From Myxococcales bacterium (GTDB taxonomy: Bacteria > Myxococcota_A > Polyangia > Palsa-1104 > JAEUJZ01): 52,692 nt of DNA. The stretch lies in NCBI GenBank assembly GCA_016794365.1, contig JAEUKB010000025.1:1-52692 (forward strand), written 5' to 3'. The first letter of the stretch is position 1, and each line of letters starts with the position of its first letter. Positions 35,830 through 50,376 of the stretch are shown here, in pieces. Position numbers and translations under genes: made by a program. The notes below the pieces were generated by a model. That model searched no databases and was not told the origin of the DNA. It saw only the letters and a program-made list of their open reading frames with translations.

Positions 35830-36765
35830 TTGAGCGTCCCCATGCACTTTTTGTTTCGCAGGCTCTCGGTCCCTCTGACGCTGCTGCGATGTTCGCTGGT
35901 TGTAGCTGTGCTGTATCTGGCTGGCTGTGCGGCCTTCGTCGAAAACTTTCGTCCGGTGATCTACGGCAAGACCGCCAAAGAGAACTACGAAAAAGGCATT
36001 CGCTCGATGAAGGGCGAAAGCAGTCTCGACGCAGCCAAGTATTTCAACTACGTGCGGCAGAACTGGCCGACCTCGCGCTGGGTGCCGTGGGCTGAGCTGG
36101 GCCTGGCTGATTCAGCCTTTTCGCGCGAGGCCTACATCGAGGCCATCGACGGATACAAGACCTTTATCGCCAGTCACCCGCGTCATCCCAAGACGGTGGA
36201 CGGCTACTGCGCGTTCAAGATCGGTGAGTCGTACTTTAAGCAGATTCCATCGGACTTTTTTGTGCTGCCGCCGTCGTACGAAAAGGATCAAGGGCCGGTC
36301 ATCGACGCACAGCGCGAGCTGACGAGCTTCCTCGATCGCTACGGACAGAGCGCGTATGCCGACTCGGGGCGCAAGCTGCTCGCCGACGTGATTCAGCGAC
36401 TTGCCGATCACGAGCTGTACGTCGCGCGCTACTACCTGGAGCGAGGCCGAACCAAGGCTGCCATCGGTCGGCTCGAGTACGTGGTGCGAGAGTATCCTCG
36501 GGCGCGTCGCGATGCCGAAGTGCTGATGATGCTCGGTCAGGTCTATCTCAAGCAGGGAGAGCCGAAGGATGCGCGCGATGCGTTCCGTCGCTTGGTGATC
36601 GAGCATCCCGACGACTATCGCATCGAGCAAGCGAAGATCTTCCTCGACTACATTGCCAATGCGTTCGGGGACTTGCCGCCGCCTGCGCCGCTTCCGCCTC
36701 GGAAGAGCCCAGGTGCCAGTCGATCTTCGGTTCCCGACGACAGCGAGCTGCTTCCGCCCGAGTAG
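35830..36765 (+). CDS. bamD: Outer membrane protein assembly factor BamD-like TPR lipoprotein
   Basis: Signal plus lipobox (LYLAGC). The TPR-like pattern aligns with BamD/YfiO (for example RYYLERGRTKAAIGRLEYVVREYP against E. coli [24 protein letters not shown]). Pro-rich C-terminal tail. Confidence 0.7.
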   Translation: MSVPMHFLFRRLSVPLTLLRCSLVVAVLYLAGCAAFVENFRPVIYGKTAKENYEKGIRSMKGESSLDAAKYFNYVRQNWPTSRWVPWAELGLADSAFSREAYIEAIDGYKTFIASHPRHPKTVDGYCAFKIGESYFKQIPSDFFVLPPSYEKDQGPVIDAQRELTSFLDRYGQSAYADSGRKLLADVIQRLADHELYVARYYLERGRTKAAIGRLEYVVREYPRARRDAEVLMMLGQVYLKQGEPKDARDAFRRLVIEHPDDYRIEQAKIFLDYIANAFGDLPPPAPLPPRKSPGASRSSVPDDSELLPPE

Positions 36766-36849
36766 CGCGTCACGGGCGACGCTTGACGTCTTCCGTGGGC
36801 AGAAACTACACTAGGACGCTTACTAACCTCTGAACAGCGGTTTGCTTTC

Positions 36850-39216
36850 GTGGCCAATTCGGGAAACAAAGAAAAGCTCATCGAAGCAGCGCAGCAACTG
36901 GCTGAAAAAGGCCAGTTTGACAAAGCGCTTCGTGAATATCTCAAGGTCGCCGCCGAGGATGAAAACGATGTCCTGGTCTGGGTGCGGATCGGCGACTTGT
37001 ACGTCAAGCTCGGTCAAAAGAGCGAAGCCATCGCCAATTATCAGCGTGTTGCTCAGCTCTATATCGCGAGCGGTCAACCCGATAATGCCATCTCGGTGTA
37101 TCAGCAAATCCTTCAGCTAGATCCGAAGTCCGCTGATACCTATATGTCACTCGGCGGATTATATCGTGATATAGGCAAAGCACCGCTGGCTATGCAGCAG
37201 TTCGAGCTGGCCGCGCAGCTCTATGCTCGGGCTGGCAAGAGCGCTCAGTCGCTGCGGGCCGAGCAGGCGGTTGTGGATCTGGCTCCAGAGAGCTTGCCGC
37301 GACGGATTCGCTTGGCGGAGCTGTACTCAAAGGAAAGTCTTCCGACGGAAGCAGCCCGAGAGTTTCGGCAGGCCAGCGCGCTCTTGAAGAGCCAGAATCG
37401 CATGGACGACTGGGCCAAGGTTGTGGAACGTCTGCTGTTCCACGCGCCGTCGGATGTTGCGATTTCCAATGAGCTAGCGCGTCACTATTTGTCCGTGAAC
37501 GATAGCCTGCGCGCACTGTCTCGGCTTCAGGCCAGCTTCAAAGAAAATCGCGCAGACAAAGAACAGCTTGAGCTACTCGCACAAGCATTTGTGAAGCTAC
37601 AAAAGCCCGACAAAGCGATTGCTGTGCTGAAAGAGCTGGCACGGCTTCATAACGATCGCAAAGCGGCTGAATCGATTTATCGCAGAGTGCTGGCCATTGA
37701 TCCCAACGACGCGGATGCTCAGAGCGCGCTGGGTGGTGGCTCGCTTCCATCTCCATCGGCAGTGCAGGCGCACTTTACGTCTGCGCTGATCCTCAATTCT
37801 CCCAGTCCTGGTCCGGTGCCGTCGTCGAAGTCGTCGCCGATTCCTGGTTCTGCGGTTTCGGCGGGGCGTCCGACGCCACTGGTGGTTCCAGCAATGCAAG
37901 CACGTACAAGCTCCGACATTACGCCGGTGGTGGGTGTGCGCCTGGATGGCACGTTGCCGCCGGTGAGTCGTCCCGTCGAGCCTCTGAGTGACGAAGAAGA
38001 GCAGGATCGCGTGCTCAGCGAGTCGGACTCGTTTGTGCGCTTCGGACTCAAAGGCAAAGCGCTGGAGTCCCTGCGTGCGACGCTGTCGCATCGGCCTCAC
38101 CTGCACAAGGTGCGCGAAAAGCTGGCCAAGGTCTACGAAGTGCTGGGGCAGTTTCGTCCCGCCATTGCAGAGCTGCGTACGCTGGCCGATCGCGCGGTCA
38201 GCCACGAAGAGCAAGCGCGCTATCTGCGTGAGATCCTGCGCCTGGACAATCGCGATGGAGCCGCGTCAGAGCGTCTGCGCCGCATCAGTGGTGAGTTTAA
38301 GCCGGTCTCGTCGCCAGCGATTGATGAAGATGAGCCAGTGATCGAGATGTCGGCTTCGGATGACGATGGTCCAACGTCGCCCAATCCAGCGGTGGTGACC
38401 CGTAGCGAGCCGCTGCCGCTGCCGCCTGCTCCGTCGGGACCATCGAGTCGTCCGCCCGTTTCAGAGCGGCCACCGTCGCGTCAGTCGGCTCCGTCGCAGC
38501 GCAGTGGCACCTTGCGGGAAGAGCTGGCCGAGGTCGAGTTCTTCATGCAGCAGCGGATGTTTGAAGATGCCAAGCGGCTGCTGCGCTCGCTGTCGTCGCG
38601 CTATCCACACAGTCAGACGGTCCAAAACAAGCTGGCCGAGCTGAGCGGAAATAGCTCGTCGTCCGACGAGAACTTGATCGAGCTAGAGCCCGAAGAGCTG
38701 GTGCCCGACAGCACGCCGCCGATTAGCAGTCCGGCGCTGCCGCCCGCGAGCAAAAAAGCGCCACCGCTTGCTTCCGCGCGCAGCATTCCGGTTCCTCCGT
38801 CGGGAACTACGCCGCAGCAGGCCGGGCAAGAAAAGAGCGGTCCGACGGAACCTCGCGATCCGAGTGAGGCGTATCAGCGCGGCATCGCGCATCGCAACCG
38901 AGGTCAGCACGCGCTCGCGATTGGTGAGTTCAAGATCGCGATGCAAGAGCGCAAGCTGGCGGGTCGGGCGGCGCTGATGCTCGGACAGTGCTATCGCGAT
39001 CTGTCGCAGCTTCGGGAAGCGGTCGAGGTCTTCAAAGAAGGTCTCTACATGCCGTCGGTGTCCGAGGCAGATCTGGCCGAGCTAAACTACCAGCTTGCGC
39101 AGTGCTACGAGCGTCAGCACAACAACAAAGAAGCGATTTACTTCTATCAGCAGGCGCAGCAGACGCAGCCGGGCTACAAAGACTCGGCGGTGAGAGTGAA
39201 CGCGCTTCGTCGGTAA
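36850..39216 (+). CDS. Large tetratricopeptide-repeat (TPR) protein
   Basis: 788 aa, GTG start. Multiple TPR-like units at the N-terminus (roughly residues 1-290) and the C-terminus (roughly residues 640-788), separated by a Pro/Ser-rich low-complexity linker. Confidence 0.7.
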   Translation: MANSGNKEKLIEAAQQLAEKGQFDKALREYLKVAAEDENDVLVWVRIGDLYVKLGQKSEAIANYQRVAQLYIASGQPDNAISVYQQILQLDPKSADTYMSLGGLYRDIGKAPLAMQQFELAAQLYARAGKSAQSLRAEQAVVDLAPESLPRRIRLAELYSKESLPTEAAREFRQASALLKSQNRMDDWAKVVERLLFHAPSDVAISNELARHYLSVNDSLRALSRLQASFKENRADKEQLELLAQAFVKLQKPDKAIAVLKELARLHNDRKAAESIYRRVLAIDPNDADAQSALGGGSLPSPSAVQAHFTSALILNSPSPGPVPSSKSSPIPGSAVSAGRPTPLVVPAMQARTSSDITPVVGVRLDGTLPPVSRPVEPLSDEEEQDRVLSESDSFVRFGLKGKALESLRATLSHRPHLHKVREKLAKVYEVLGQFRPAIAELRTLADRAVSHEEQARYLREILRLDNRDGAASERLRRISGEFKPVSSPAIDEDEPVIEMSASDDDGPTSPNPAVVTRSEPLPLPPAPSGPSSRPPVSERPPSRQSAPSQRSGTLREELAEVEFFMQQRMFEDAKRLLRSLSSRYPHSQTVQNKLAELSGNSSSSDENLIELEPEELVPDSTPPISSPALPPASKKAPPLASARSIPVPPSGTTPQQAGQEKSGPTEPRDPSEAYQRGIAHRNRGQHALAIGEFKIAMQERKLAGRAALMLGQCYRDLSQLREAVEVFKEGLYMPSVSEADLAELNYQLAQCYERQHNNKEAIYFYQQAQQTQPGYKDSAVRVNALRR

Positions 39217-39276
39217 GCTTGGGGTTTTGCGTCGCGCTGACGGACGAGCGCTTCCAACCAGCGCGATCGCATCAGG

Positions 39277-40275
39277 CTACGACGCTGATTCGTGGGATTT
39301 GGGCTGGATTCCGCGCTCTTTGCGCAGCTTTTCTTCGTCGAAGCCTGGCTCGACGTAGATGCGACGAAGATGCGGAAACTTGGTGCGCAGCGCGGCTTCG
39401 AGATCGTTGATCTTGCTCTCGAGCGCATCCATCGTCAGGTCGCGCGCGAAGCGAATCTTGATCGCGGCCAGCACTTCCTGCGGCGCAATGTGCATGGTTC
39501 GCAGGTGAATGACCTCGAGCACACCCGACTGACGAGACGCTAGCTCGACGATCTGTTCGTGCTCTTCTTTCGGAACCGCTTCGCCAATCAGCAGGCTCAT
39601 CGAGTCTCGTCCGAGGAAGATCGCCACCACCAGCAGCGCAATACCGACGACAATCGACGCGAGCGCATCCCACAGCGGATTGCCGGTCAGGTAGCTTCCG
39701 AGCACACCCGCGAGCGCCACCGCCAGTCCGAACAGCGCCGCCAGATCCTCAAACAGCACGGTCAGCACCGTTGGATCGCGCGCATCTTCGAGCGTCTTGC
39801 GCAGGCCTTTGCCCGCCGTCATGTGCAAAAACTCCTGCACGGCTGCGCGCAGCGACCAGCTTTCCAGCACCAGCGACACGCAGAGCACGATGATCGCCCA
39901 CTTCACGTCGCCATGCGCGTGTGCTTGTCCGTGCGCGATGTGCCACAGCTTCTCGCTGCCTTCCCAGATGCTGACCGCCGCACCGATGAGGAAGATGCTG
40001 CCCGCGACGATGAATGCCCAAAAATACGTCTCGGTGCCGTAGCCAAACGGGTGCAGCGCATCCGGAGGTCGCGAGCTGCGACGCATTCCGATGAGCAAAA
40101 ACGCCTGATTCGACGTATCCGCCAGCGAGTGAACCGCTTCAGCCAGCATCGCCGTCGATCCACTGATCGCTGCGGCTGCGAACTTGAACACTGCGATAAG
40201 CAGGTTGATAAAAAGCGCCACCATCACCACGCGGAGTCCTCCGCTGTGGCCGGTGGTCGGCTCTGCTGCGCTCAT
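39277..40275 (-). CDS. Cation diffusion facilitator (CDF) family metal efflux transporter
   Basis: Track ORF is 39277..40368. I chose the Met of MSAAEPTTGHSGG (40275). CDF signature HSLADTSNQAFLLIG, six TM helices, and a C-terminal cytoplasmic domain. Confidence 0.85.
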   Translation of the reverse strand: MSAAEPTTGHSGGLRVVMVALFINLLIAVFKFAAAAISGSTAMLAEAVHSLADTSNQAFLLIGMRRSSRPPDALHPFGYGTETYFWAFIVAGSIFLIGAAVSIWEGSEKLWHIAHGQAHAHGDVKWAIIVLCVSLVLESWSLRAAVQEFLHMTAGKGLRKTLEDARDPTVLTVLFEDLAALFGLAVALAGVLGSYLTGNPLWDALASIVVGIALLVVAIFLGRDSMSLLIGEAVPKEEHEQIVELASRQSGVLEVIHLRTMHIAPQEVLAAIKIRFARDLTMDALESKINDLEAALRTKFPHLRRIYVEPGFDEEKLRKERGIQPKSHESAS

Positions 40276-40288
40276 GACTTCCCCCTTG

Positions 40289-40957
40289 CTACACGCGATC
40301 TTCGAGCGATGCTCCTGACTCGGTTCCTCGGTCTTGCGCCGAAAGCAGCAGTCGCTGCCACAGCTCACCTATGCCTTCCCCTTGCTCGGCTGCACAGACG
40401 ATGGCTTTGCCGCCTAGCACGCGCGACAGGATCTGCGCCGCTGGCTTGCGCTCGGACTTGGCCAGCTTGTCGGCCTTGGTCAGCACCGGAATCACCTTGC
40501 GACCGAGCCCGCGTAGGTACAGAGCCAGCTCACTTTCGTCGAACAGCAGCTCTTCCACCCGAGCATCGATCACCCGGCGCGCGTCGCACAGCATCGCTAC
40601 GGCACGCAGGCTGTCCCGACCGCTCAGGTATTCTTCCATCATCTTTTGCCAGCTTGCGCGCTCGGTGCGGCTGACTTCGGCATAGCCGTAGCCCGGCAAG
40701 TCCGCGAGCATCACGTCGATGGGCTGCTCGGGACCGCTCACCGTCGTGCGGAAAAAGTTGATGAGTCGCGTTCGTCCCGGCGTCTTCGACACCCTGGCCA
40801 GACCCCGGCGACCGAGTAGCGCGTTGAGCAGCGTAGACTTGCCCACGTTGCTGCGACCACAGATGGCCACTTCCGCCATGGTGGGCGCGGGCCACTGCGC
40901 ACGGGTCGGAGCGCTGGCGACAAACTCGCTGCGAAGGATATGCATAGGCGGGCTCAT
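40289..40957 (-). CDS. engB: Ribosome biogenesis GTP-binding protein EngB/YihA
   Basis: G1 motif GRSNVGKSTLLNAL, G3 motif DLPGYG, G4 motif TKADK. The track ORF extends to 41203, and I trimmed the start to the Met of MSPPMHILRSEF (40957; the Met at 40945 is also possible). Confidence 0.85.
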   Translation of the reverse strand: MSPPMHILRSEFVASAPTRAQWPAPTMAEVAICGRSNVGKSTLLNALLGRRGLARVSKTPGRTRLINFFRTTVSGPEQPIDVMLADLPGYGYAEVSRTERASWQKMMEEYLSGRDSLRAVAMLCDARRVIDARVEELLFDESELALYLRGLGRKVIPVLTKADKLAKSERKPAAQILSRVLGGKAIVCAAEQGEGIGELWQRLLLSAQDRGTESGASLEDRV

Positions 40958-40973
40958 TGTACCTTGGGTTCGA

Positions 40974-42257
40974 CTAGGCTTTGCTAAGGACCAAGCTGAT
41001 GTTTGCGCCACCCTGCGAGAGCGTCGGAACCAGCGCATGACGAACCTGGGCCGCGCGCGACGTTCGGATGATTCCGGGCAGGCTGCGCAGCGGATCGGGT
41101 GTCTGACAGTGTACGGTTCCTGGCACCTTTTGTGCGCACAGGGACCACAGCGCGGCACCCAGGCGCACACCGGCAGAGGTCTGCCACTCGCCGCACTGAC
41201 CAATCACAGAGGAAATGGCCACGCGCTCAGCGGCTTGACCGAGTGCGTCTCGCAGCGCGGCGGCTTCCAGTTCATCGAGCGAGCTACCGTTTCCTGCACC
41301 CGCGACGTAATCGATCTGATCAGCGGACAGACTGGCCATTGCCAGGCTCTGGGTGATCGCAGCGCTGGCTCCCGCAGCGGGACCGCTTTTGTGGGACCAA
41401 CCGACGCGCGCGCGCTCGTCTCCGGCCCGACCCACGCCCGATAGATACGCCAGCGGAGGTGCGCTCAGCCCGCGATCGGCCCGCTCGAGCAGGACAACCA
41501 CCGCGCCTTCGCCCGGCACCACGCCTTGACCGCGCGCTTCGTAGGGATGAATCGGTGCTGTCTCGGCGGTCGCGAGATCCGGCGACAACAGCGACATCTG
41601 CCACAGGCCATGGATCAGCCACGAGGACAGCTCGTCGCAGCCACCACACAGCACGGCATCGGCGCGGTCGGTCGCGATGAGCTCTGCGCCCGTCGCAATC
41701 GCTTCGGGCAAAGACAGCTCGCGGTGGTTCACGGTGATGTTGGGCCCAGTCAGACCCAGCTCAATCGCCAGGATTCCCGACGAGGCATTCATAACCGTAT
41801 ACGGAAAGACAGCGGGCGACGCAGCGGCCACACCGGAAGCGATGATGCTGCGAACGAACTCGATGGTGGAATCCAGTCCGCCCAGTCCAGTTCCCAGGAC
41901 CACACCGATGCGCGCTGCACCATGTCTGCGCAGGGCTTCCGCTTCCGCCGGAGCAACCCCAGGCACAAGACCCAGGGCTTCACGCGCTGCGACGACGCAC
42001 ATCTGCGCAAGCCGTGGCATGCGACGACGTTTTCCCGCCTCAATGGCCGCTTGCGCACCGAAGTCTTCGACGCGACCGGTCCAAATGGGCTGACCACGCA
42101 GCTCCTCAGGAAGCTGAATCGATGGATCGACAGACCGGCTGAGCGCGGAACGACCTTCGGCCAGGCTTGCGAAAAACGCTTGCTGCGTTGCTCCGAGTGG
42201 TGTGACCAGCCCGAGTCCGGTGATGGCCACCTTCGGCAGAAGCGAGACGCTAGACAT
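40974..42257 (-). CDS. Beta-ketoacyl-ACP synthase (KAS I/II)-like protein lacking the Cys-His-His catalytic triad
   Basis: Thiolase/KAS fold pattern (VAITGLGLVTPLG, GPNITV, GGCDE). Aligned by eye to E. coli FabF, the catalytic residue positions read Glu in place of Cys163 (GPNITVNHRELS against GPSISIATACTS), Asn in place of His303 (AGNGSS against AHGTST), and Glu or Gln in place of His340 (GQCGEW against TGHLLG). Start trimmed to Met10 (42257). Confidence 0.7.
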   Translation of the reverse strand: MSSVSLLPKVAITGLGLVTPLGATQQAFFASLAEGRSALSRSVDPSIQLPEELRGQPIWTGRVEDFGAQAAIEAGKRRRMPRLAQMCVVAAREALGLVPGVAPAEAEALRRHGAARIGVVLGTGLGGLDSTIEFVRSIIASGVAAASPAVFPYTVMNASSGILAIELGLTGPNITVNHRELSLPEAIATGAELIATDRADAVLCGGCDELSSWLIHGLWQMSLLSPDLATAETAPIHPYEARGQGVVPGEGAVVVLLERADRGLSAPPLAYLSGVGRAGDERARVGWSHKSGPAAGASAAITQSLAMASLSADQIDYVAGAGNGSSLDELEAAALRDALGQAAERVAISSVIGQCGEWQTSAGVRLGAALWSLCAQKVPGTVHCQTPDPLRSLPGIIRTSRAAQVRHALVPTLSQGGANISLVLSKA

Positions 42258-42279
42258 GGCGCTATTTGCTATCATGGCA

Positions 42280-42957
42280 GCCATGGCGAAAACGAAAAAA
42301 ATGGCAAGCCTGCTTCGTGCGGCTGCTCCTGCGGTCGCCGGTGCAGTGCTCCTCGCTGCCCAGCCTGCCGATGCGAAGATCCTCGAAGGCTACGTCGATG
42401 TCTATGTCGGCGGCATGTACGGCACCCCGCCCAAGCTCAGCTCGATCGTCACCCAAAAGTCCGAGCAAGCGGGCACCACCAAAGGCGCTGACTTTTTCGA
42501 CTACAACTCGGGCGGCTTGCTGGGTCTGCGCGGCGGTATCGAGATTCTGCACACCGATGCGTACATCCAGTTCGATCAGTTCGTGACGATGCAGGGTTTT
42601 TCGGGCTCGACGCTCCAAGGCATGATCGGCTGGGACTTCGAGCTGGGCTCGGGCGCGTGGCGTGGCGTTCTCGGCGGCTACGGCGGGCTTATCTTCGGGC
42701 TTCCCTATCGCACGGAGTATCCGATCGATCGCAAGCAGATTGCGTGGTTCGGACTCGGCGCGGAAGGCCAGGCGGGCGTTGAGTATTACCTGAACCGCTT
42801 TTTCGTTCTCAACTTCACCGGAACCTTTGGCTACCACTACATGCTCGCCGGTGCAGAGCAGGTCATCATCGACATGGCGGGCAACACCGAACAGACCCGC
42901 ACCCACGGCTTCCATTTGCTCGGCAAGCTGGGTCTGCGCTTCCAACTCGGTATCTAA
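42280..42957 (+). CDS. Hypothetical secreted protein (Gly/aromatic-rich, possibly a beta-barrel)
   Basis: Track ORF is 42202..42957. I chose the Met of MAKTKKMASLLRAAAPAVAGAVLLAAQPADA, which gives a signal peptide; the Met at 42301 is an alternative. Alternating Gly/Tyr/Phe-rich segments. Confidence 0.45.
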   Translation, partial: AMAKTKKMASLLRAAAPAVAGAVLLAAQPADAKILEGYVDVYVGGMYGTPPKLSSIVTQKSEQAGTTKGADFFDYNSGGLLGLRGGIEILHTDAYIQFDQFVTMQGFSGSTLQGMIGWDFELGSGAWRGVLGGYGGLIFGLPYRTEYPIDRKQIAWFGLGAEGQAGVEYYLNRFFVLNFTGTFGYHYMLAGAEQVIIDMAGNTEQTRTHGFHLLGKLGLRFQLGI

Positions 42958-42999
42958 AACCAGTGCCGAGACGCCGGGTGGTTTTGCTATCGTCCCGAC

Positions 43000-43899
43000 A
43001 TGAGTGACCCAGGCAAGCCCGTTGTTATCACTTGTGCTCTCACCGGAGTCCTGACCGACCCAACCCAGCATCGCGTGCCGGTGACCGCTGCTGAGATGGC
43101 GCAAGCCGCAGCCGAAGCCAGAGACGCTGGTGCGACGGTTGTTCACTGTCACTATCGACAACAAACCCCTGGCATGGGTCGCTTTCCGACGTGGGAACCC
43201 GATGTCGTCGCAGAAATTGATTCAGCGATTCGTGCGCGCGTTCCCGACATCATCGTCAACATGTCCACGGGCGTCATCGGTCCCGATGTCAGTGCGCCGC
43301 TCGCTTGCCTTGCGCGGATTCGTCCCGAAATGGCTGCGCTCAATGCCGGATCGCTCAACTACTTGAGAGCACGCAGCGACGGACGCTGGGCATGGCCGCC
43401 GATGCTGTTCGACAATCCCGTCGATAAGGTTGAAAAGTTTCTGTCCGCGATGAACCAGATCGGCACCGTTCCCGAGTGTGAGTGCTTCGATACTGGCATC
43501 GTTCGCTCGATCGGGCTGTTCAAGCAAGTGGGTCTGCTCACGGGTCCGATCCATGTCTCGCTGGTGATGGGCGTCGCGTCCGGCATGCCGTGTAAGCCCG
43601 AGTGGCTGCCGTTGATCGTCGCAGAACTTCCCGAGGGTGCGCACTTTCAGACGATCGGCATCGGTCAAAAGGAAGTCTGGCCGGTTCATCGTCGCGCCGC
43701 CGAGCTGGGTGGTCACTTGCGTACCGGCATCGAGGACACCTTCTATCTTCCCGACGGAACCAAGACCGACTCCAACGGACGCCTGGTCGAAGCGCTGGTA
43801 AAGCTGGCGCGCGAAGTGGGCCGAGACATTGCGACAGCGACGCAAGCGCGCGAGATCCTCGGGGTGCTGCCGGTTCCGCACGGTCCCGTCGATCCGTGA
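43000..43899 (+). CDS. Beta-keto acid cleavage enzyme (BKACE/DUF849, 3-keto-5-aminohexanoate cleavage enzyme family)
   Basis: 299 aa. Family-typical N-terminus (KPVVITCALTGVLTD), HCHYRQ, and GIED motifs near the C-terminus. Confidence 0.75.
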   Translation: MSDPGKPVVITCALTGVLTDPTQHRVPVTAAEMAQAAAEARDAGATVVHCHYRQQTPGMGRFPTWEPDVVAEIDSAIRARVPDIIVNMSTGVIGPDVSAPLACLARIRPEMAALNAGSLNYLRARSDGRWAWPPMLFDNPVDKVEKFLSAMNQIGTVPECECFDTGIVRSIGLFKQVGLLTGPIHVSLVMGVASGMPCKPEWLPLIVAELPEGAHFQTIGIGQKEVWPVHRRAAELGGHLRTGIEDTFYLPDGTKTDSNGRLVEALVKLAREVGRDIATATQAREILGVLPVPHGPVDP

Positions 43900-45329
43900 T
43901 GGAAGCGACGACATCCGCGCCCGAGCGCTGCCTTTCGCTGTGCTGTCTTGATGCGGGACGCGGACGTCATCTGGCCGAAGGGCTGCGCGAAAGTGGCTAT
44001 TCCGTTCGCCTGGTTTCGTCGCTAAAAGCGCTCCTTGGTGGATCCGATGCGGCACCGATCGATCTGCTGGTGGTCGAGCTGCCTTCGCTCGATGAAGAGC
44101 TTGTGCGTGCGCTCTATCGACGCTGTCCGACGCTGATGGTTGCATTTGATCCATTGTCCGTCGGTGATGCATCGCGGTTGATTCGCGCTGGTGCCTACGA
44201 TGTCTTGCCGTCGCCGCTTCGTCTGTCCGAGCTACGTCTTGCGCTCGAAAAATCGGCGGCGCGTGAAGCCAGCTTGGGTGACCGTCGCGCAGAGCGCTTT
44301 TTGCCGATTCAAGGTCGTGTACCAGCTTCCGATGCTGTGCAGCTGCCGAAGTTCGTCATTGCCGAGTCAAAAGTGATGCGCGGACTGCTGGCTCAAGTGG
44401 CGCGCGTCGCTGTGCATCCGACCTCGGTGCTGCTGCTGGGAGAGTCGGGAACCGGCAAGGAAGTGCTGGCGCGAACGCTTCATCAGCTCTCGCCGCGTCG
44501 AGACGGACCTTTTGTTGCCATCAACTGCGGTGCGCTGCCCGAAGCGCTGCTCGAGAGCCTGCTGTTTGGTCACGTTCAAGGTGCGTTTACCGACGCTGTG
44601 CGTGATCAGCAAGGTGTCTTTGCGCGTGCGAGCGGCGGAACCTTGTTTCTCGACGAGATTGGCGAGCTACCGCTGGCGCTTCAGGTCAAGCTGCTGCGCG
44701 CGCTGCAAGAGCAAAAAATCCTGCCGCTCGGGGCCAAAGAGGAGCTGAGCGTCGATGTGCGCGTGATCGCCGCGACGCTGCGCAACCTAAGCCGCGAGGT
44801 CGATGCCAAGCGCTTTCGAGTCGATCTCTATTACCGTCTGAGCGTCGTCGAGCTGTTGGTTCCACCACTGCGAGAGCGTCGCGACGACATCTTACCGCTG
44901 GCGTTTCACTTCTTACAGCGGGCGGCGCAGCGTCTGGCTCGTCCGATCGTCGGGATCACCGAGCCTGCGCAGCGTGCGCTTCAGCGCTTCGACTTTCCGG
45001 GCAACGTCCGAGAGCTGGAAAACCTGGTCGAGCGCGCGGTGGTGCTGTGCGATCACACGCAGCTCGACGTGGCCGATCTGCCGTTTGCTGTGATCTCATC
45101 GTCGCTGGGTACGGCTCGCTCGGCTACGCTGACGCACTCGGAACCCGACGAGCTGGATCCGGCCAATCTCTCGGTCAAGCAAGCGACTGCTCGTCTGGAA
45201 CAGCGACTGATCGCGAAGGCCCTGCACAAGACGCGCGGCAACCGGACAGCGGCGGCCAAGCTGCTCGGGCTGTCGCATCGCGCGCTGCTCTACAAGCTGC
45301 GGGACTACGGCGGCGAAACCGATTCCTAG
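43899..45329 (+). CDS. Sigma-54-dependent transcriptional activator (NtrC-family enhancer-binding protein) with an atypical receiver domain
   Basis: The track ORF starts at 43602. I chose the ATG at 43899, which overlaps the TGA stop of the upstream gene (gtgATGg). AAA+ motifs GESGTGKE, GAFTDA (a GAFTGA variant) and ESLLFGH, plus a C-terminal Fis-type helix-turn-helix. In the receiver domain, Glu replaces the phospho-acceptor Asp (LLVVELPSLD). Confidence 0.85.
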   Translation: MEATTSAPERCLSLCCLDAGRGRHLAEGLRESGYSVRLVSSLKALLGGSDAAPIDLLVVELPSLDEELVRALYRRCPTLMVAFDPLSVGDASRLIRAGAYDVLPSPLRLSELRLALEKSAAREASLGDRRAERFLPIQGRVPASDAVQLPKFVIAESKVMRGLLAQVARVAVHPTSVLLLGESGTGKEVLARTLHQLSPRRDGPFVAINCGALPEALLESLLFGHVQGAFTDAVRDQQGVFARASGGTLFLDEIGELPLALQVKLLRALQEQKILPLGAKEELSVDVRVIAATLRNLSREVDAKRFRVDLYYRLSVVELLVPPLRERRDDILPLAFHFLQRAAQRLARPIVGITEPAQRALQRFDFPGNVRELENLVERAVVLCDHTQLDVADLPFAVISSSLGTARSATLTHSEPDELDPANLSVKQATARLEQRLIAKALHKTRGNRTAAAKLLGLSHRALLYKLRDYGGETDS

Positions 45330-49021: not shown

Positions 49022-50129
49022 TTATCCTGCGGCCTGAATCAGGTAGGCTTTGATAAACTCGTCCAAGTCTCCGTCGAGCACCGCATCCACATTGCCCAGC
49101 TTTAGCTCGCTGCGGTGATCGGTCACCAGTCGATATGGTGCCAGCACGTACGAACGAATCTGGCTGCCCCACTCGATCGACTTTTTGTGGCTGTTCGCTT
49201 CGTCGAGCTTGGCTTCTTGCTCGCGTAGCTTTTGGGCATAGAGCATCGCGCGCAGCATCTTCATCGCCGTCGAGCGGTTCTTGTGCTGCGATCGCTCGGA
49301 CTGACATTTTGCGACGAGCCCCGACGGCTTGTGAATGATCCGGACCGCGCTCTCGGTCTTGTTGACGTGCTGACCACCGGCACCGCCCGAGCGCATCGTC
49401 TGCACTTCCAGGTCATCGTCTTTGATATCGATCTCGATCGAGTCGTCGATTTCGGGATAGACATACACCGCCGCAAACGCTGTATGTCGTCGTGCATTCG
49501 AGTCAAACGGCGAGATCCGCACCAGTCGATGCACTCCGCTTTCCGCCTTCAGATACCCGAATGAGTTGAGCCCACGCACCGCGAAGCTTACCGACTTGAT
49601 GCCCGCTTCTTCGCCATCTTGCAGATCCAGCTCTTCGATCGCGAAGCCACGTCGCTCGGCCCAGCGATAATACATCCGACGGAGCATATCGGCCCAGTCT
49701 TGCGCATCGACGCCACCGGCTCCGGCATTGATCGATACGAGCGCGTCGGTGTGATCCTGTTCGCCCGACAGCATCCGTCGCAGCTCCATCGCAGCTACGC
49801 CCTCTTCGATGCGCGAAGCGTTGGTCTGCGCTTCCGTCGCTGAGCCTTCATCCTGCGCTTCTTCCGCTAGCTCCAGCAGCACGGACGCATCTTGTAGCTC
49901 GCGCTGAAGACGATTCCATTCTCCGACGACTTGCTTGTGTCCGGCTTGCTCTCGCAGGACCGTCTGCGCTTTGTCCTGCTGATTCCAGAACGCCGGATCC
50001 GACGAGATCTGTTCGATTTCGAGCAGCCGCTCTTCCAGCTTCTCGATGTCAAAGATGCCCTCGAAGAGCAGTCAGTCGCTCCCCGAGGGACTCTAGAAGT
50101 TGATGGGTCTTTTGAGTCTCAATCGCCAT
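49022..50129 (-). CDS. prfB: Peptide chain release factor 2, requires a programmed +1 ribosomal frameshift
   Basis: Frame 0 runs from the ATG at 50129..50127 through MAIETQKTHQLLESLGERLTALRGHL to CTT (50054..50052) followed by TGA (50051..50049). The +1 frame is open from GAC (50050..50048) to the stop at 49022 and contains the SPFDSNARRHT and RSGGAGGQHVNKTESAVR motifs. The site CTT-TGA-C, with GAGGG 3 nt upstream, matches the canonical prfB shift site. The track only shows the 286-aa tail (49022..49882). Confidence 0.9.
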
Positions 50130-50376
50130 GTGGAGGCAAGGAACTAGCACAAAAGGAAGCCTGCGCGGTGTGAATCGGACCGGCTGCGCAAACCCTCGAA
50201 CTGAGCAGCTAAGATCGCAACTCGTAGCATGGTCGGACCAAAAAGCGGGCTGATTTTGAGGTGTTATCTACGGCTTTTGGCTCGGTCAGATGCTCGTCGC
50301 TGTGGAGCTTGACCCTTGCGCAAACGGCGCAGGTGGTGGTATAGGCGGAGATACATTTTGGTAGGAATCCACGGAA

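What the first reader, a model, noticed from the sequence alone, without database searches (positions are those of the whole stretch)
40974..42257. KAS-like condensing-enzyme pseudoenzyme (Cys, His, His all substituted) heading an operon with engB and a CDF transporter
The protein has the FabF/FabB fold signature and length, but by-eye alignment to E. coli FabF puts Glu at the nucleophilic Cys163 position, Asn at His303 and Glu/Gln at His340. It therefore cannot perform Claisen condensation. It is followed after 16 nt by engB (essential ribosome-assembly GTPase) and after another 13 nt by a CDF metal exporter, all co-directional. A catalytically dead KAS co-transcribed with engB is unusual. 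It could be a structural or ACP-binding regulator, a chain-length-factor-like partner for a KS encoded elsewhere, or a decarboxylase-type variant.
Basis: partly seen in the sequence, partly recalled or inferred. Interest (0 to 1): 0.5.

Follow-up and report, generated by a model that had tools for sequence, protein, structure and literature searches.

The report
Orphan dead ketosynthase paired with porin-like gene
This gene encodes a well-conserved but catalytically dead copy of the fatty-acid chain-extending enzyme FabF, descended from the silent partner subunit of two-subunit pigment- and lipid-building enzymes; its lasting neighbour is a small outer-membrane barrel gene, not engB.

Summary
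Window 40974..42257 (-) encodes a FabF-fold protein (Pfam PF00109 and PF02801; AF2 pLDDT 89; TM 0.82-0.89 to solved FabFs). engB follows after 16 nt and a CDF transporter after 13 nt.

It is not a decaying gene. dN/dS is 0.15, like engB. About 50 relatives, all from uncultured Myxococcota/Polyangia, keep an invariant N-H-R-(D/E) motif at the former Cys site.

The nearest outside relatives carry the same motif. They are the second gene of adjacent KS-alpha/KS-beta pairs in Desulfobacterales, some inside aryl-polyene-like or ladderane-like clusters. A related KS-alpha/KS-beta fusion lies in an aryl-polyene-like cluster. So this is an orphaned KS-beta (chain-length-factor-like) subunit.

The engB/CDF linkage exists only in relatives at least 55% identical (8 loci) and in 0 of 12 more distant ones. 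The conserved neighbour, in 22 of 22 loci, is a divergent, uncharacterised 8-stranded outer-membrane barrel gene. Its start codon lies about 25 nt away, across a conserved 21-nt motif.

The partner KS and the function remain untested. I rate it a new variant of a known kind, of moderate interest.

The parts
40974..42257 (-). KAS-like (FabF-fold) pseudo-ketosynthase, an orphan KS-beta/CLF-like protein of 427 aa from MSSVSLL. The longest ORF extends to 42284.
   Evidence: Pfam PF00109 and PF02801. fabF TIGR03150 scores 188 bits, below the 494 cut-off. AF2 pLDDT is 89. Foldseek best hits are FabF structures at TM 0.82-0.89. dN/dS is 0.15 against L088.
41718..41729 (-). N186-H187-R188-E189 motif replacing FabF A-T-A-Cys163. 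N, H and R are invariant in the 30-sequence family alignment (one K at the R position in wider sets). The fourth position is D or E, and A in one lineage.
41286..41300 (-). G-A-G-N-G replacing FabF A-His303-G-Thr305-S (His303->Ala330, Thr305->Asn332).
41187..41204 (-). I361...G365-E366 replacing FabF Lys335...Gly-His340.
41013..41015 (-). Gln424 replacing the gatekeeper Phe400. It is Gln in 19 of 19 Myxococcota family members aligned.
41397..41420 (-). D-E-R-A-R-V-G-W loop replacing FabF gating loop 2 (D-A-Y-H-M-T-S-P). Two clade-specific near-invariant Arg residues, plus a Trp shared with the Desulfobacterales KS-beta proteins.
42021..42026 (-). R87-R88, aligned with FabF Arg68-Lys69 (ACP-docking patch) and invariant in the family.
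   Evidence: The ACP-docking role of these FabF residues is from my own knowledge of FabF-AcpP structures and was not tested here.
42255..42275 (-). Conserved 21-nt DNA motif ATGATAGCAAATAGCGCCATG ending in the KAS-like start codon. It fills most of the roughly 25-nt spacer to the divergent OMP start codon.
   Evidence: One match in the window against 0 expected. Exact in 15 orthologous loci, one mismatch in 4, and absent elsewhere in 167 loci. Alignment.
42283..42957 (+). Divergently transcribed small outer-membrane beta-barrel protein (224 aa, signal peptide MAKTKKMASLL...AQPADA) with no Pfam family. It is the conserved partner gene.
40289..40957 (-). engB/ysxC ribosome-biogenesis GTPase, 16 nt downstream. 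The linkage holds only in a subclade.
   Evidence: TIGR03598 at 172 bits, above the 124 cut-off. Spacing. Synteny.
39277..40275 (-). CDF-family cation efflux transporter, 13 nt downstream of engB.
   Evidence: PF01545 and PF16916. TIGR01297 at 148 bits, above the 82 cut-off. Spacing.

Best explanation
The gene encodes a catalytically inactive FabF-fold protein of the KS-beta (chain-length-factor-like) kind. It belongs to a distinct clade marked by an N-H-R-(D/E) motif at the former Cys site.

The clade arose as the silent partner in adjacent KS-alpha/KS-beta gene pairs of aryl-polyene-like or ladderane-like type II PKS/FAS systems. In a Polyangia (Myxococcota) lineage the KS-beta gene became a stand-alone gene.

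Shown here:
- It cannot carry out acyl transfer, decarboxylation or condensation by the canonical mechanism.
- It is under purifying selection.
- It is co-inherited with a divergent small outer-membrane barrel gene across a conserved, nearly zero-length intergenic spacer.

Inferred:
- It still works non-catalytically. It would dimerise with an active FabF-type ketosynthase encoded elsewhere in the genome, dock acyl- or malonyl-ACP through its retained Arg-Arg patch, and shape the partner's substrate tunnel.
- It would thereby tune a specialised envelope or outer-membrane lipid pathway.
- The downstream engB and CDF genes are a lineage-specific operon addition with no mechanistic link.
For: - Catalytic residues are all replaced, and the fold is FabF.
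- Selection is purifying. There are 49 invariant columns in 30 sequences at a mean 54% identity. dN/dS is 0.15, against 0.17 for engB.
- The Desulfobacterales relatives (32-37% identity) share N160, H161, R162, E163, S165, R68, R69, W272, N305, G306 and E340 (E. coli FabF numbering). They lie directly downstream of a canonical KS carrying TACSSG, HGTA and KSMxGH.
- In the NJ tree the Myxococcota clade has 100/100 support and Myxococcota plus Desulfobacterales KS-beta 71/100. All dead KS-beta proteins group apart from their KS-alpha partners.
- Some of these pairs sit with a KR, ApeI-like and ApeP-like dehydratases, two ACPs and B12-radical-SAM genes.
- The fusion protein P0334 joins a canonical KS to a beta half carrying T-H-R-D, RRRRLNRL and CGEY (33% identity over 352 aa). 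It lies in an aryl-polyene-like cluster.
- Basal Myxococcota orphans keep an AAT-family neighbour that is a full-length homolog (E about 1e-80) of the AAT gene in such a cluster.
- Precedents exist. Anammox amxFabF-mut, probably the second-best PDB sequence hit 9s5h_C, is active only as a heterodimer with amxFabF2. ApeO-ApeC is a KS-CLF heterodimer.
- R87 and R88 align with FabF Arg68 and Lys69 and are invariant.
Against: - No KS or ACP gene lies in the 52-kb window, and none is adjacent in any Myxococcota locus. The proposed partner is therefore hypothetical.
- The Myxococcota clade has its own invariant residues that the paired Desulfobacterales KS-beta proteins lack: R267, R269, Q400 and Leu/Ile in place of Lys335. 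This suggests a functional shift after orphaning.
- amxFabF-mut crystallises as a homodimer on its own, so a homodimeric life is possible.
- Heterodimer formation, ACP binding and the lipid product could not be tested with these tools.
Confidence: 0.5

Rival explanations
1. Neo-functionalised stand-alone protein. After losing its KS-alpha partner, the Myxococcota clade rebuilt the old active-site pocket into a new charged site made of N-H-R-D/E, R267, R269, W272, N305, E340 and Q400 (E. coli FabF numbering). This site binds or acts on a different ligand as a homodimer. Examples would be sequestering a charged acyl- or malonyl-ACP, or a novel hydrolase or transferase. Its function would be tied to the outer-membrane barrel partner.
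For: - The clade-specific invariant residues cluster at the former active site and its entrance loop.
- The gene is always orphaned in Myxococcota.
- It is tightly co-inherited with the OMP gene, which has the stronger constraint (dN/dS 0.03).
- amxFabF-mut can homodimerise.
Against: - One lineage (P0010, L081, L082, L090) has Ala instead of Asp/Glu at the Cys position while keeping the same synteny, so that residue is not an essential catalytic group.
- The His303 position varies among Ala, Ser and Gly.
- No known enzyme chemistry matches the residue set.
- I could not inspect the pocket in model coordinates.
Confidence: 0.3
2. Functional coupling with engB and the CDF transporter. The dead KS would act as a regulator or adaptor linking lipid synthesis to ribosome assembly or metal efflux, which would explain why it heads that operon.
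For: - The gaps are 16 nt and 13 nt with no terminator.
- The arrangement persists down to 55% identity, in a locus whose outer flanks differ (L081).
Against: - The arrangement is absent in 12 of 12 orthologous loci at 43-54% identity, where the gene is followed by convergent or unrelated genes.
- The basal clade and the Desulfobacterales relatives never have engB nearby.
Confidence: 0.05
3. Non-functional relic: a decaying FabF paralogue with no role.
For: It has lost every catalytic residue, and it scores far below the fabF cut-off.
Against: - The ORF is intact in about 50 clusters and dN/dS is 0.15-0.23, similar to engB.
- There are 49 invariant columns, including the replaced active-site positions.
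- The AF2 model is confident.
Confidence: 0.02
4. Alignment artefact: the protein is an active ketosynthase and the catalytic residues are merely shifted.
For: None found.
Against: Three independent alignments agree. The flanking motifs (GPN..., GxGNG, GQxGE, QGG) align without gaps. No Cys or His occurs within 4 residues of the C163, H303 or H340 positions, except His187, which sits two residues before the Cys position.
Confidence: 0.01

Closest known systems
Anammox amxFabF-mut (KustE3606 and orthologs) with its partner amxFabF2; bioRxiv 10.64898/2026.05.19.726425. PDB 9s5h chains C and B are probably this heterodimer. That is my inference, from Val at the Cys position in the alignment.
   Same: Both are full-length, FabF-derived and FabF-fold, with the whole Cys-His-His triad replaced. 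9s5h_C is the second-best PDB sequence hit (E 1e-35). The solved FabFs are the closest folds for both proteins. The Desulfobacterales relatives of the window protein also sit in clusters with radical-SAM and FAS-like genes.
   Different: - amxFabF-mut has Val or Thr at the Cys site and variable Asn, Glu or Cys at the His sites. It lacks the N-H-R-(D/E) motif.
- It is encoded next to its partner, whereas the window gene has no KS neighbour.
- The organism and cluster context differ.
Type II PKS chain length factor (KS-beta), for example actinorhodin ActI-ORF2 (PDB 1TQY) and ishigamide Iga12 (PDB 6KXD-F).
   Same: Both are a KS-fold subunit without the nucleophilic Cys, whose family ancestrally pairs with an active KS-alpha.
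   Different: - Classical CLFs carry Gln at the Cys position (my own knowledge); here it is Asp, Glu or Ala.
- Classical CLFs are always adjacent to KS-alpha.
- By sequence the window protein is closer to FabF (136 bits to 1e5m) than to the actinorhodin KS (59 bits). All of the top 50 Foldseek hits are FabF-type synthases.
ApeO-ApeC KS-CLF of aryl-polyene clusters (PDB 6QSP; PMC8358021).
   Same: Relatives of the window protein lie in clusters with ApeI-like and ApeP-like dehydratases, LolA-like, Lip_A_acyltrans, AAT and MMPL genes typical of aryl-polyene-type pathways. The products of those pathways are outer-membrane lipids.
   Different: [quoted passage not shown] The window protein is full length. 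The short ApeC-like CLF in L168 is only weakly similar to family members (E about 1e-8).
Uncharacterised Desulfobacterales KS-alpha/KS-beta(NHRE) pairs, for example Desulfosarcina variabilis NZ_CP159846 (L024).
   Same: They are the nearest relatives (32-37% identity). They share N-H-R-E, the R68/R69 patch, W272, N305 and E340.
   Different: They are always paired with a canonical KS immediately upstream. They keep Lys335. They lack the Myxococcota-specific R267, R269 and Q400, and they have no OMP neighbour.
FabF / KASII (TIGR03150).
   Same: Fold, length, domain order and overall 28% identity.
   Different: All catalytic and gating residues are replaced, and the score is far below the family cut-off.

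Membership tests
FabF / beta-ketoacyl-ACP synthase II (TIGR03150) | Scores above the curated equivalog cut-off. | tested here: not met
   188 bits against a cut-off of 493.75.
FabF / beta-ketoacyl-ACP synthase II (TIGR03150) | Cys163-His303-His340 catalytic triad, plus Lys335 and the Phe400 gate. | tested here: not met
   The positions hold Glu, Ala, Glu, Ile and Gln respectively.
FabF / beta-ketoacyl-ACP synthase II (TIGR03150) | Thiolase-type KS fold with N- and C-terminal KS domains. | tested here: met
   PF00109 and PF02801. The AF2 model matches FabF structures at TM 0.82-0.89.
KS-beta / chain-length-factor-like subunit | KS fold lacking the nucleophilic Cys. | tested here: met
KS-beta / chain-length-factor-like subunit | Encoded adjacent to its active KS-alpha partner. 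| tested here: not met
   No KS lies in the window or next to any Myxococcota ortholog. The feature is met in the Desulfobacterales sister clade.
KS-beta / chain-length-factor-like subunit | Forms a heterodimer with KS-alpha and shapes its acyl tunnel. | not testable with these tools
   No multimer prediction or biochemistry was available. Indirect support comes from the fused KS-alpha/KS-beta relative P0334.
KS-beta / chain-length-factor-like subunit | Gln at the Cys position (aromatic type II PKS CLF, KS-Q). | tested here: not met
   The position holds Glu here, and Asp, Glu or Ala across the family.
N-H-R-(D/E) KS-beta clade (defined here) | N-H-(R/K)-(D/E/A)-x-S at the Cys site, R-R at FabF positions 68-69, Trp at 272, Asn at 305 and Glu/Asp at 340. 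| tested here: met
EngB/YsxC GTPase (TIGR03598), downstream gene | Scores above the curated cut-off. | tested here: met
   172.3 bits against 124.45.
Cation diffusion facilitator (TIGR01297), second downstream gene | Scores above the curated cut-off, with Cation_efflux and ZT_dimer domains. | tested here: met
   147.9 bits against 82.35. PF01545 and PF16916.

The most novel reading that the evidence does not exclude
The Polyangia clade is no longer a ketosynthase partner at all. It would be a stand-alone protein whose former active site was rebuilt into a conserved charged pocket (N-H-R-D/E, two extra Arg, Trp, Asn, Glu, Gln) with a new ligand or chemistry. It would work together with the co-inherited, equally uncharacterised 8-stranded outer-membrane barrel, forming a previously undescribed two-gene envelope-lipid module derived from an aryl-polyene-type pathway.
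Probability: 0.25. Interest if true: 0.7.

Novelty: new variant of a known kind. Interest (0 to 1): 0.42.

Why it matters
Dead ketosynthase partners (CLFs, ApeC, anammox FabF-mut) set chain length and initiation in polyketide and unusual-lipid synthesis, and every characterised one is encoded beside its active partner. This clade differs in three ways:
- It is a full-length FabF-derived KS-beta.
- Its replacement residues are themselves strictly conserved.
- In one bacterial lineage it has been cut loose from any KS gene, yet it stays under strong selection and is locked to an outer-membrane barrel gene.

It gives a concrete test case for whether a CLF-type protein can act in trans on a KS encoded elsewhere, or can take on a new role.

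It also flags a practical annotation problem. JGI names these proteins '3-oxoacyl-ACP synthase II', which overstates the fatty-acid synthesis capacity of these MAGs.

The widespread Desulfobacterales KS-alpha/KS-beta(NHRE) pair found along the way is itself uncharacterised. It is probably what antiSMASH calls 'ladderane' clusters in non-anammox bacteria. That last link is my inference.

Tried and rejected
- Partner KS in the window. tblastn with E. coli FabF, the Desulfosarcina KS-alpha and KS-beta, and E. coli AcpP found nothing besides the gene itself.
- Partner KS in Myxococcota genomes. The third homolog search, using the Desulfosarcina KS-alpha, returned only Desulfobacterales orthologs at 65-89% identity and gave no information on Myxococcota.
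- Sphingolipid link. An aminotransferase near the basal orphans looked like a possible serine palmitoyltransferase. In L087 it sits in an aromatic amino-acid operon (CM_2/PDT, PDH, EPSP synthase), so I rejected the idea. A PAP2_C gene convergent to the gene in L006-L010 is not conserved elsewhere.
- engB coupling was rejected on synteny.
- RNA element in the spacer. Rfam gave only a sub-threshold raiA-hairpin hit inside the OMP gene (23 bits against 43.7, E 0.5), which I treat as chance.
- The sigma-70 promoter scan found nothing in 39000-43100.
- A literature search for the PDB code 9S5H found nothing. Linking 9s5h to the anammox preprint is therefore my inference.
- I could not read the AF2 model coordinates, so I made no pocket or tunnel analysis.
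Full report
**1. What is at the coordinates**

The ORF at 40974..42284 (-) gives 436 aa from the first ATG. Many orthologs are called from that Met. The 27 nt upstream are a conserved DNA motif rather than protein-coding conservation.

The protein matches the ketosynthase N- and C-terminal domains, PF00109 at 7e-26 and PF02801 at 3e-11. It reaches only 188 bits on the fabF equivalog model, whose cut-off is 494. An AlphaFold2 model built on 30 family sequences is confident (pLDDT 89, pTM 0.90). Its best Foldseek matches in the PDB are all FabF/KASII structures, with TM 0.82-0.89 and 23-29% identity.

**2. Catalytic positions**

Three independent alignments give the same result: HMMER against solved FabFs, MAFFT with E. 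coli FabF, and a 110-sequence alignment.

| E. coli FabF | Window protein |
|---|---|
| Cys163 | Glu189 |
| His303 | Ala330 |
| Thr305 | Asn332 |
| Lys335 | Ile361 |
| His340 | Glu366 |
| Phe400 | Gln424 |

The conclusion that the triad is gone is right. By established KS chemistry, the protein cannot form the acyl-enzyme, cannot decarboxylate malonyl-ACP through the His pair, and cannot condense.

**3. Operon geometry**

Read from the sequence, the layout is stop TAG, 16 nt, engB ATG at 40957, then engB stop, 13 nt, CDF ATG at 40275. No terminator-like hairpin lies in either gap. engB passes TIGR03598 and the transporter passes TIGR01297. Co-transcription is plausible but untested.

**4. It is a conserved family, not a wreck**

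- A search of 5.8 billion proteins gave a sharply bounded family of about 50 clusters (915 down to 185 bits). There is then a gap to generic FabFs at about 130 bits.
- The named members and all genome hits are uncultured Myxococcota/Polyangia MAGs.
- Thirty members at a mean 54% identity share 49 invariant columns.
- The substituted active-site positions are themselves conserved: T-(V/I)-N-H-R-(D/E)-x-S at the Cys site, G-x-G-N-G at the His303 site, G-(E/D) at the His340 site and Q-G-G at the Phe400 site. A clade-specific D-x-R-x-R-x-G-W replaces gating loop 2.
- R87 and R88, aligned with FabF Arg68 and Lys69 of the ACP-docking patch, are invariant.
- dN/dS against an 83%-identical ortholog is 0.15, compared with 0.17 for engB and for the CDF.
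- One lineage (P0010, L081, L082, L090) has Ala at the Cys position. The acidic residue is therefore not indispensable.

**5. Where it comes from**

*Desulfobacterales sister clade.* A pattern scan of 185,579 species genomes, with residue-level comparison, shows the nearest outside relatives at 32-37% identity. They are in Desulfobacterales, including the cultured Desulfosarcina variabilis (L024).
- They share N-H-R-E, the R-R patch, Trp272, Asn305, Gly306 and Glu340.
- In every locus with enough upstream sequence they lie directly downstream of a canonical KS carrying TACSSG, INAHGTA and KSMxGHTLG.
- That arrangement is a KS-alpha/KS-beta gene pair.

*Phylogeny.* In an NJ tree the Myxococcota family is monophyletic (100/100). 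It groups with the Desulfobacterales KS-beta proteins in 71 of 100 bootstraps. All dead KS-beta proteins (Planctomycetota, Omnitrophota, Acidobacteriota, Desulfobacterales and Myxococcota) cluster apart from their KS-alpha partners.

*Cluster context of the pair.*
- In D. variabilis the pair stands alone between mutM and efp.
- In another subgroup it is embedded with a FabG-like KR, ApeP-like and ApeI-like dehydratases, two ACPs and three B12-radical-SAM genes.
- In a third subgroup it is followed by an AMP-binding enzyme.

*Fusion proteins.* An exhaustive HMM search of 1.84 billion representatives found only about 12 fifty-percent clusters of the Myxococcota type, and many roughly 800-aa KS-alpha/KS-beta fusions.
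- One fusion, P0334, has a beta half with T-H-R-D, RRRRLNRL and CGEY, 33% identical over 352 aa. It sits in an aryl-polyene-like cluster with Lip_A_acyltrans, a 4HBT thioesterase, KS, ACP, polysaccharide deacetylase, LolA and AAT genes.
- A related fusion, P0051, sits in a complete aryl-polyene/xanthomonadin-type cluster with an aromatic ammonia lyase, a halogenase, a KR, ApeP-like and ApeI-like genes, LolA, AAT and MMPL.

*Basal orphans.* The basal Myxococcota orphans (L011-L016, L087) are still followed by an AAT-family gene. It is a full-length homolog (31-36% identity, E about 1e-80) of that cluster's AAT.

The most economical history is that a KS-beta subunit of an aryl-polyene-like type II PKS/FAS system was left behind as the cluster was reduced.

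**6. The conserved neighbour is not engB**

I combined genome, metagenome and exact-protein look-ups.

| Neighbour | Where it is found |
|---|---|
| engB + CDF downstream | 8 loci, all at least 55% identical to the window protein (83, 73, 72, 68, 61 and 56% ×3, the last three being copies of one lineage) |
| engB + CDF downstream | 0 of 12 loci at 43-54% identity with enough downstream sequence; there the gene is followed by convergent or unrelated genes |
| Divergent upstream gene 42283..42957 (+) | 22 of 22 loci with at least 1.3 kb of upstream sequence (roughly 15 distinct lineages), while every other flank changes |

The upstream protein:
- has a signal peptide and no Pfam family;
- has only 31 unnamed homolog clusters, several on the same contigs as the KAS-like family;
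- gives a confident model (pLDDT 84.5);
- is the most constrained gene of the locus (dN/dS 0.03).

The two start codons are about 25 nt apart. The spacer is dominated by a 21-nt motif, ATGATAGCAAATAGCGCCATG. It is exact in 15 orthologous loci, has one mismatch in 4, and is absent from the other loci. None is expected by chance in the window. On the OMP strand it reads TGcTATCAT, 7 nt before the ATG. That would fit an extended -10 and a leaderless mRNA, which is my inference and is untested.

**7. Mechanism**

*Shown.* The protein has the FabF fold with no condensation machinery. It is under purifying selection, has KS-beta ancestry, and is co-inherited with an outer-membrane barrel gene.

*Inferred, as the best-supported reading (confidence about 0.5).* It still acts as a non-catalytic KS-beta. 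It would dimerise with an active KS encoded elsewhere, use its retained Arg-Arg patch to dock ACP, and contribute to the partner's tunnel, in a pathway for a specialised envelope lipid. Two precedents support this:
- anammox amxFabF-mut, which is inactive alone and confers malonyl-ACP decarboxylation only as a heterodimer with amxFabF2;
- ApeO-ApeC.

*Main rival (about 0.3).* This is neo-functionalisation as a stand-alone protein.
- For it: the Myxococcota clade has its own invariant residues that the paired Desulfobacterales proteins lack, namely two Arg in loop 2, Gln400 and loss of Lys335.
- For it: no partner is ever adjacent, and amxFabF-mut can homodimerise.
- Against a new catalytic centre: Ala at the Cys position in one lineage and the variable His303 position.

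A soft hint comes from the model. Its least confident internal stretch (residues 131-170, pLDDT 66-82) corresponds to the helix-loop-helix lid that is disordered in the amxFabF-mut homodimer and ordered in the heterodimer.

A functional tie to engB or the CDF is unlikely (about 0.05). A dead relic or an alignment artefact is excluded.

**8. Comparison with what is known, and novelty**

- It works like, and descends from, KS-beta/CLF-type subunits.
- It fails two CLF membership features that I tested: adjacency to KS-alpha, and Gln at the Cys site.
- It fails FabF membership on both score and catalytic residues.
- Databases call it '3-oxoacyl-ACP synthase II' (JGI) or 'beta-ketoacyl synthase N-terminal-like domain-containing protein' (NCBI). 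My literature searches found no description of the N-H-R-(D/E) clade or of the OMP family.

I file it as a new variant of a known kind. Interest is moderate. The dead-KS idea is established. The strictly conserved replacement motif, the orphan state and the obligate pairing with an uncharacterised outer-membrane barrel are new and testable.

Noticed in passing
window 42255-42300 (both strands): The start codons of the KAS-like gene and the divergent OMP gene are only about 25 nt apart. The spacer holds a 21-nt motif (ATGATAGCAAATAGCGCCATG on the - strand) that is conserved in loci whose proteins are only 43-55% identical. On the + strand it reads TGcTATCAT, 7 nt before the OMP ATG, which could be an extended -10 and a leaderless mRNA. 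The motif also explains the spurious N-terminal extensions 'MIANSAM' and 'MALFAIM' in database gene calls.
   Followed up: partly
window 42283-42957 (+): An uncharacterised 8-stranded outer-membrane barrel family of 31 clusters with no Pfam model. It has many invariant polar residues (QFDQ, GYHY and HGFH motifs, plus several Glu and Arg) and very strong constraint (dN/dS 0.03). It may be an outer-membrane enzyme or a specific binding protein rather than a plain porin.
   Followed up: partly
L018-L036, L040, L094-L104 (for example L024:6760-9227, Desulfosarcina variabilis NZ_CP159846): A widespread, highly conserved KS-alpha + KS-beta(N-H-R-E) two-gene unit in Desulfobacterales. KS-alpha is 65-89% identical across more than 120 clusters. 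It stands alone between mutM and efp in Desulfosarcina. In other MAGs it lies inside clusters with a KR, ApeI-like and ApeP-like dehydratases, two ACPs and three B12-radical-SAM genes. These are probably the 'ladderane-like' BGCs reported in non-anammox bacteria. The unit is uncharacterised.
   Followed up: partly
L011-L016, L087 (for example L013:9973-11700): The basal Myxococcota orphans are flanked by a DsbD-like gene upstream. Downstream lie a double-zinc-ribbon protein and an AAT-family (PF03417) gene homologous to the AAT of aryl-polyene-like clusters (L168:15019-16707). The role of AAT-family proteins in those clusters is unclear to me.
   Followed up: partly
P0276-P0334 and P0051/P0052 (for example L168:10001-12217): There are many covalent KS-alpha/KS-beta fusion proteins of about 730-870 aa in metagenomes, with diverse residues at the dead Cys site. 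Some lie in full aryl-polyene/xanthomonadin-type clusters that also encode a separate KS plus a short ApeC-like CLF.
   Followed up: partly
L081, L082, L090 (protein P0010): One lineage of the family has N-H-R-Ala instead of N-H-R-Asp/Glu at the former Cys site, while keeping the OMP, engB and CDF synteny.
   Followed up: yes
window 49022-50130 (-), site at about 50054: The prfB (release factor 2) gene shows the classical programmed +1 frameshift. The short ORF MAIETQKTHQLLESLGERLTALRGHL ends at CTT TGA C, and the PCRF/RF-1 domains continue in the +1 frame. This is a known feature.
   Followed up: yes
window 43000-45329 (+): A BKACE (beta-keto acid cleavage enzyme, PF05853) gene and a sigma-54-dependent activator follow the OMP gene on the same strand. 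This is also seen in L001, L002 and L084. It may be an OMP-BKACE-activator operon in this sublineage only.
   Followed up: no
window 35830-39216 (+): A BamD/YfiO lipoprotein gene and a 788-aa TPR protein converge on the CDF gene. This synteny is conserved in the closest relatives (L001, L002, L084).
   Followed up: no
protein clusters of P0003 and P0004: JGI/IMG annotates members of this dead family as '3-oxoacyl-[acyl-carrier-protein] synthase II'. This is an over-annotation that could mislead metabolic reconstructions of these MAGs.
   Followed up: yes
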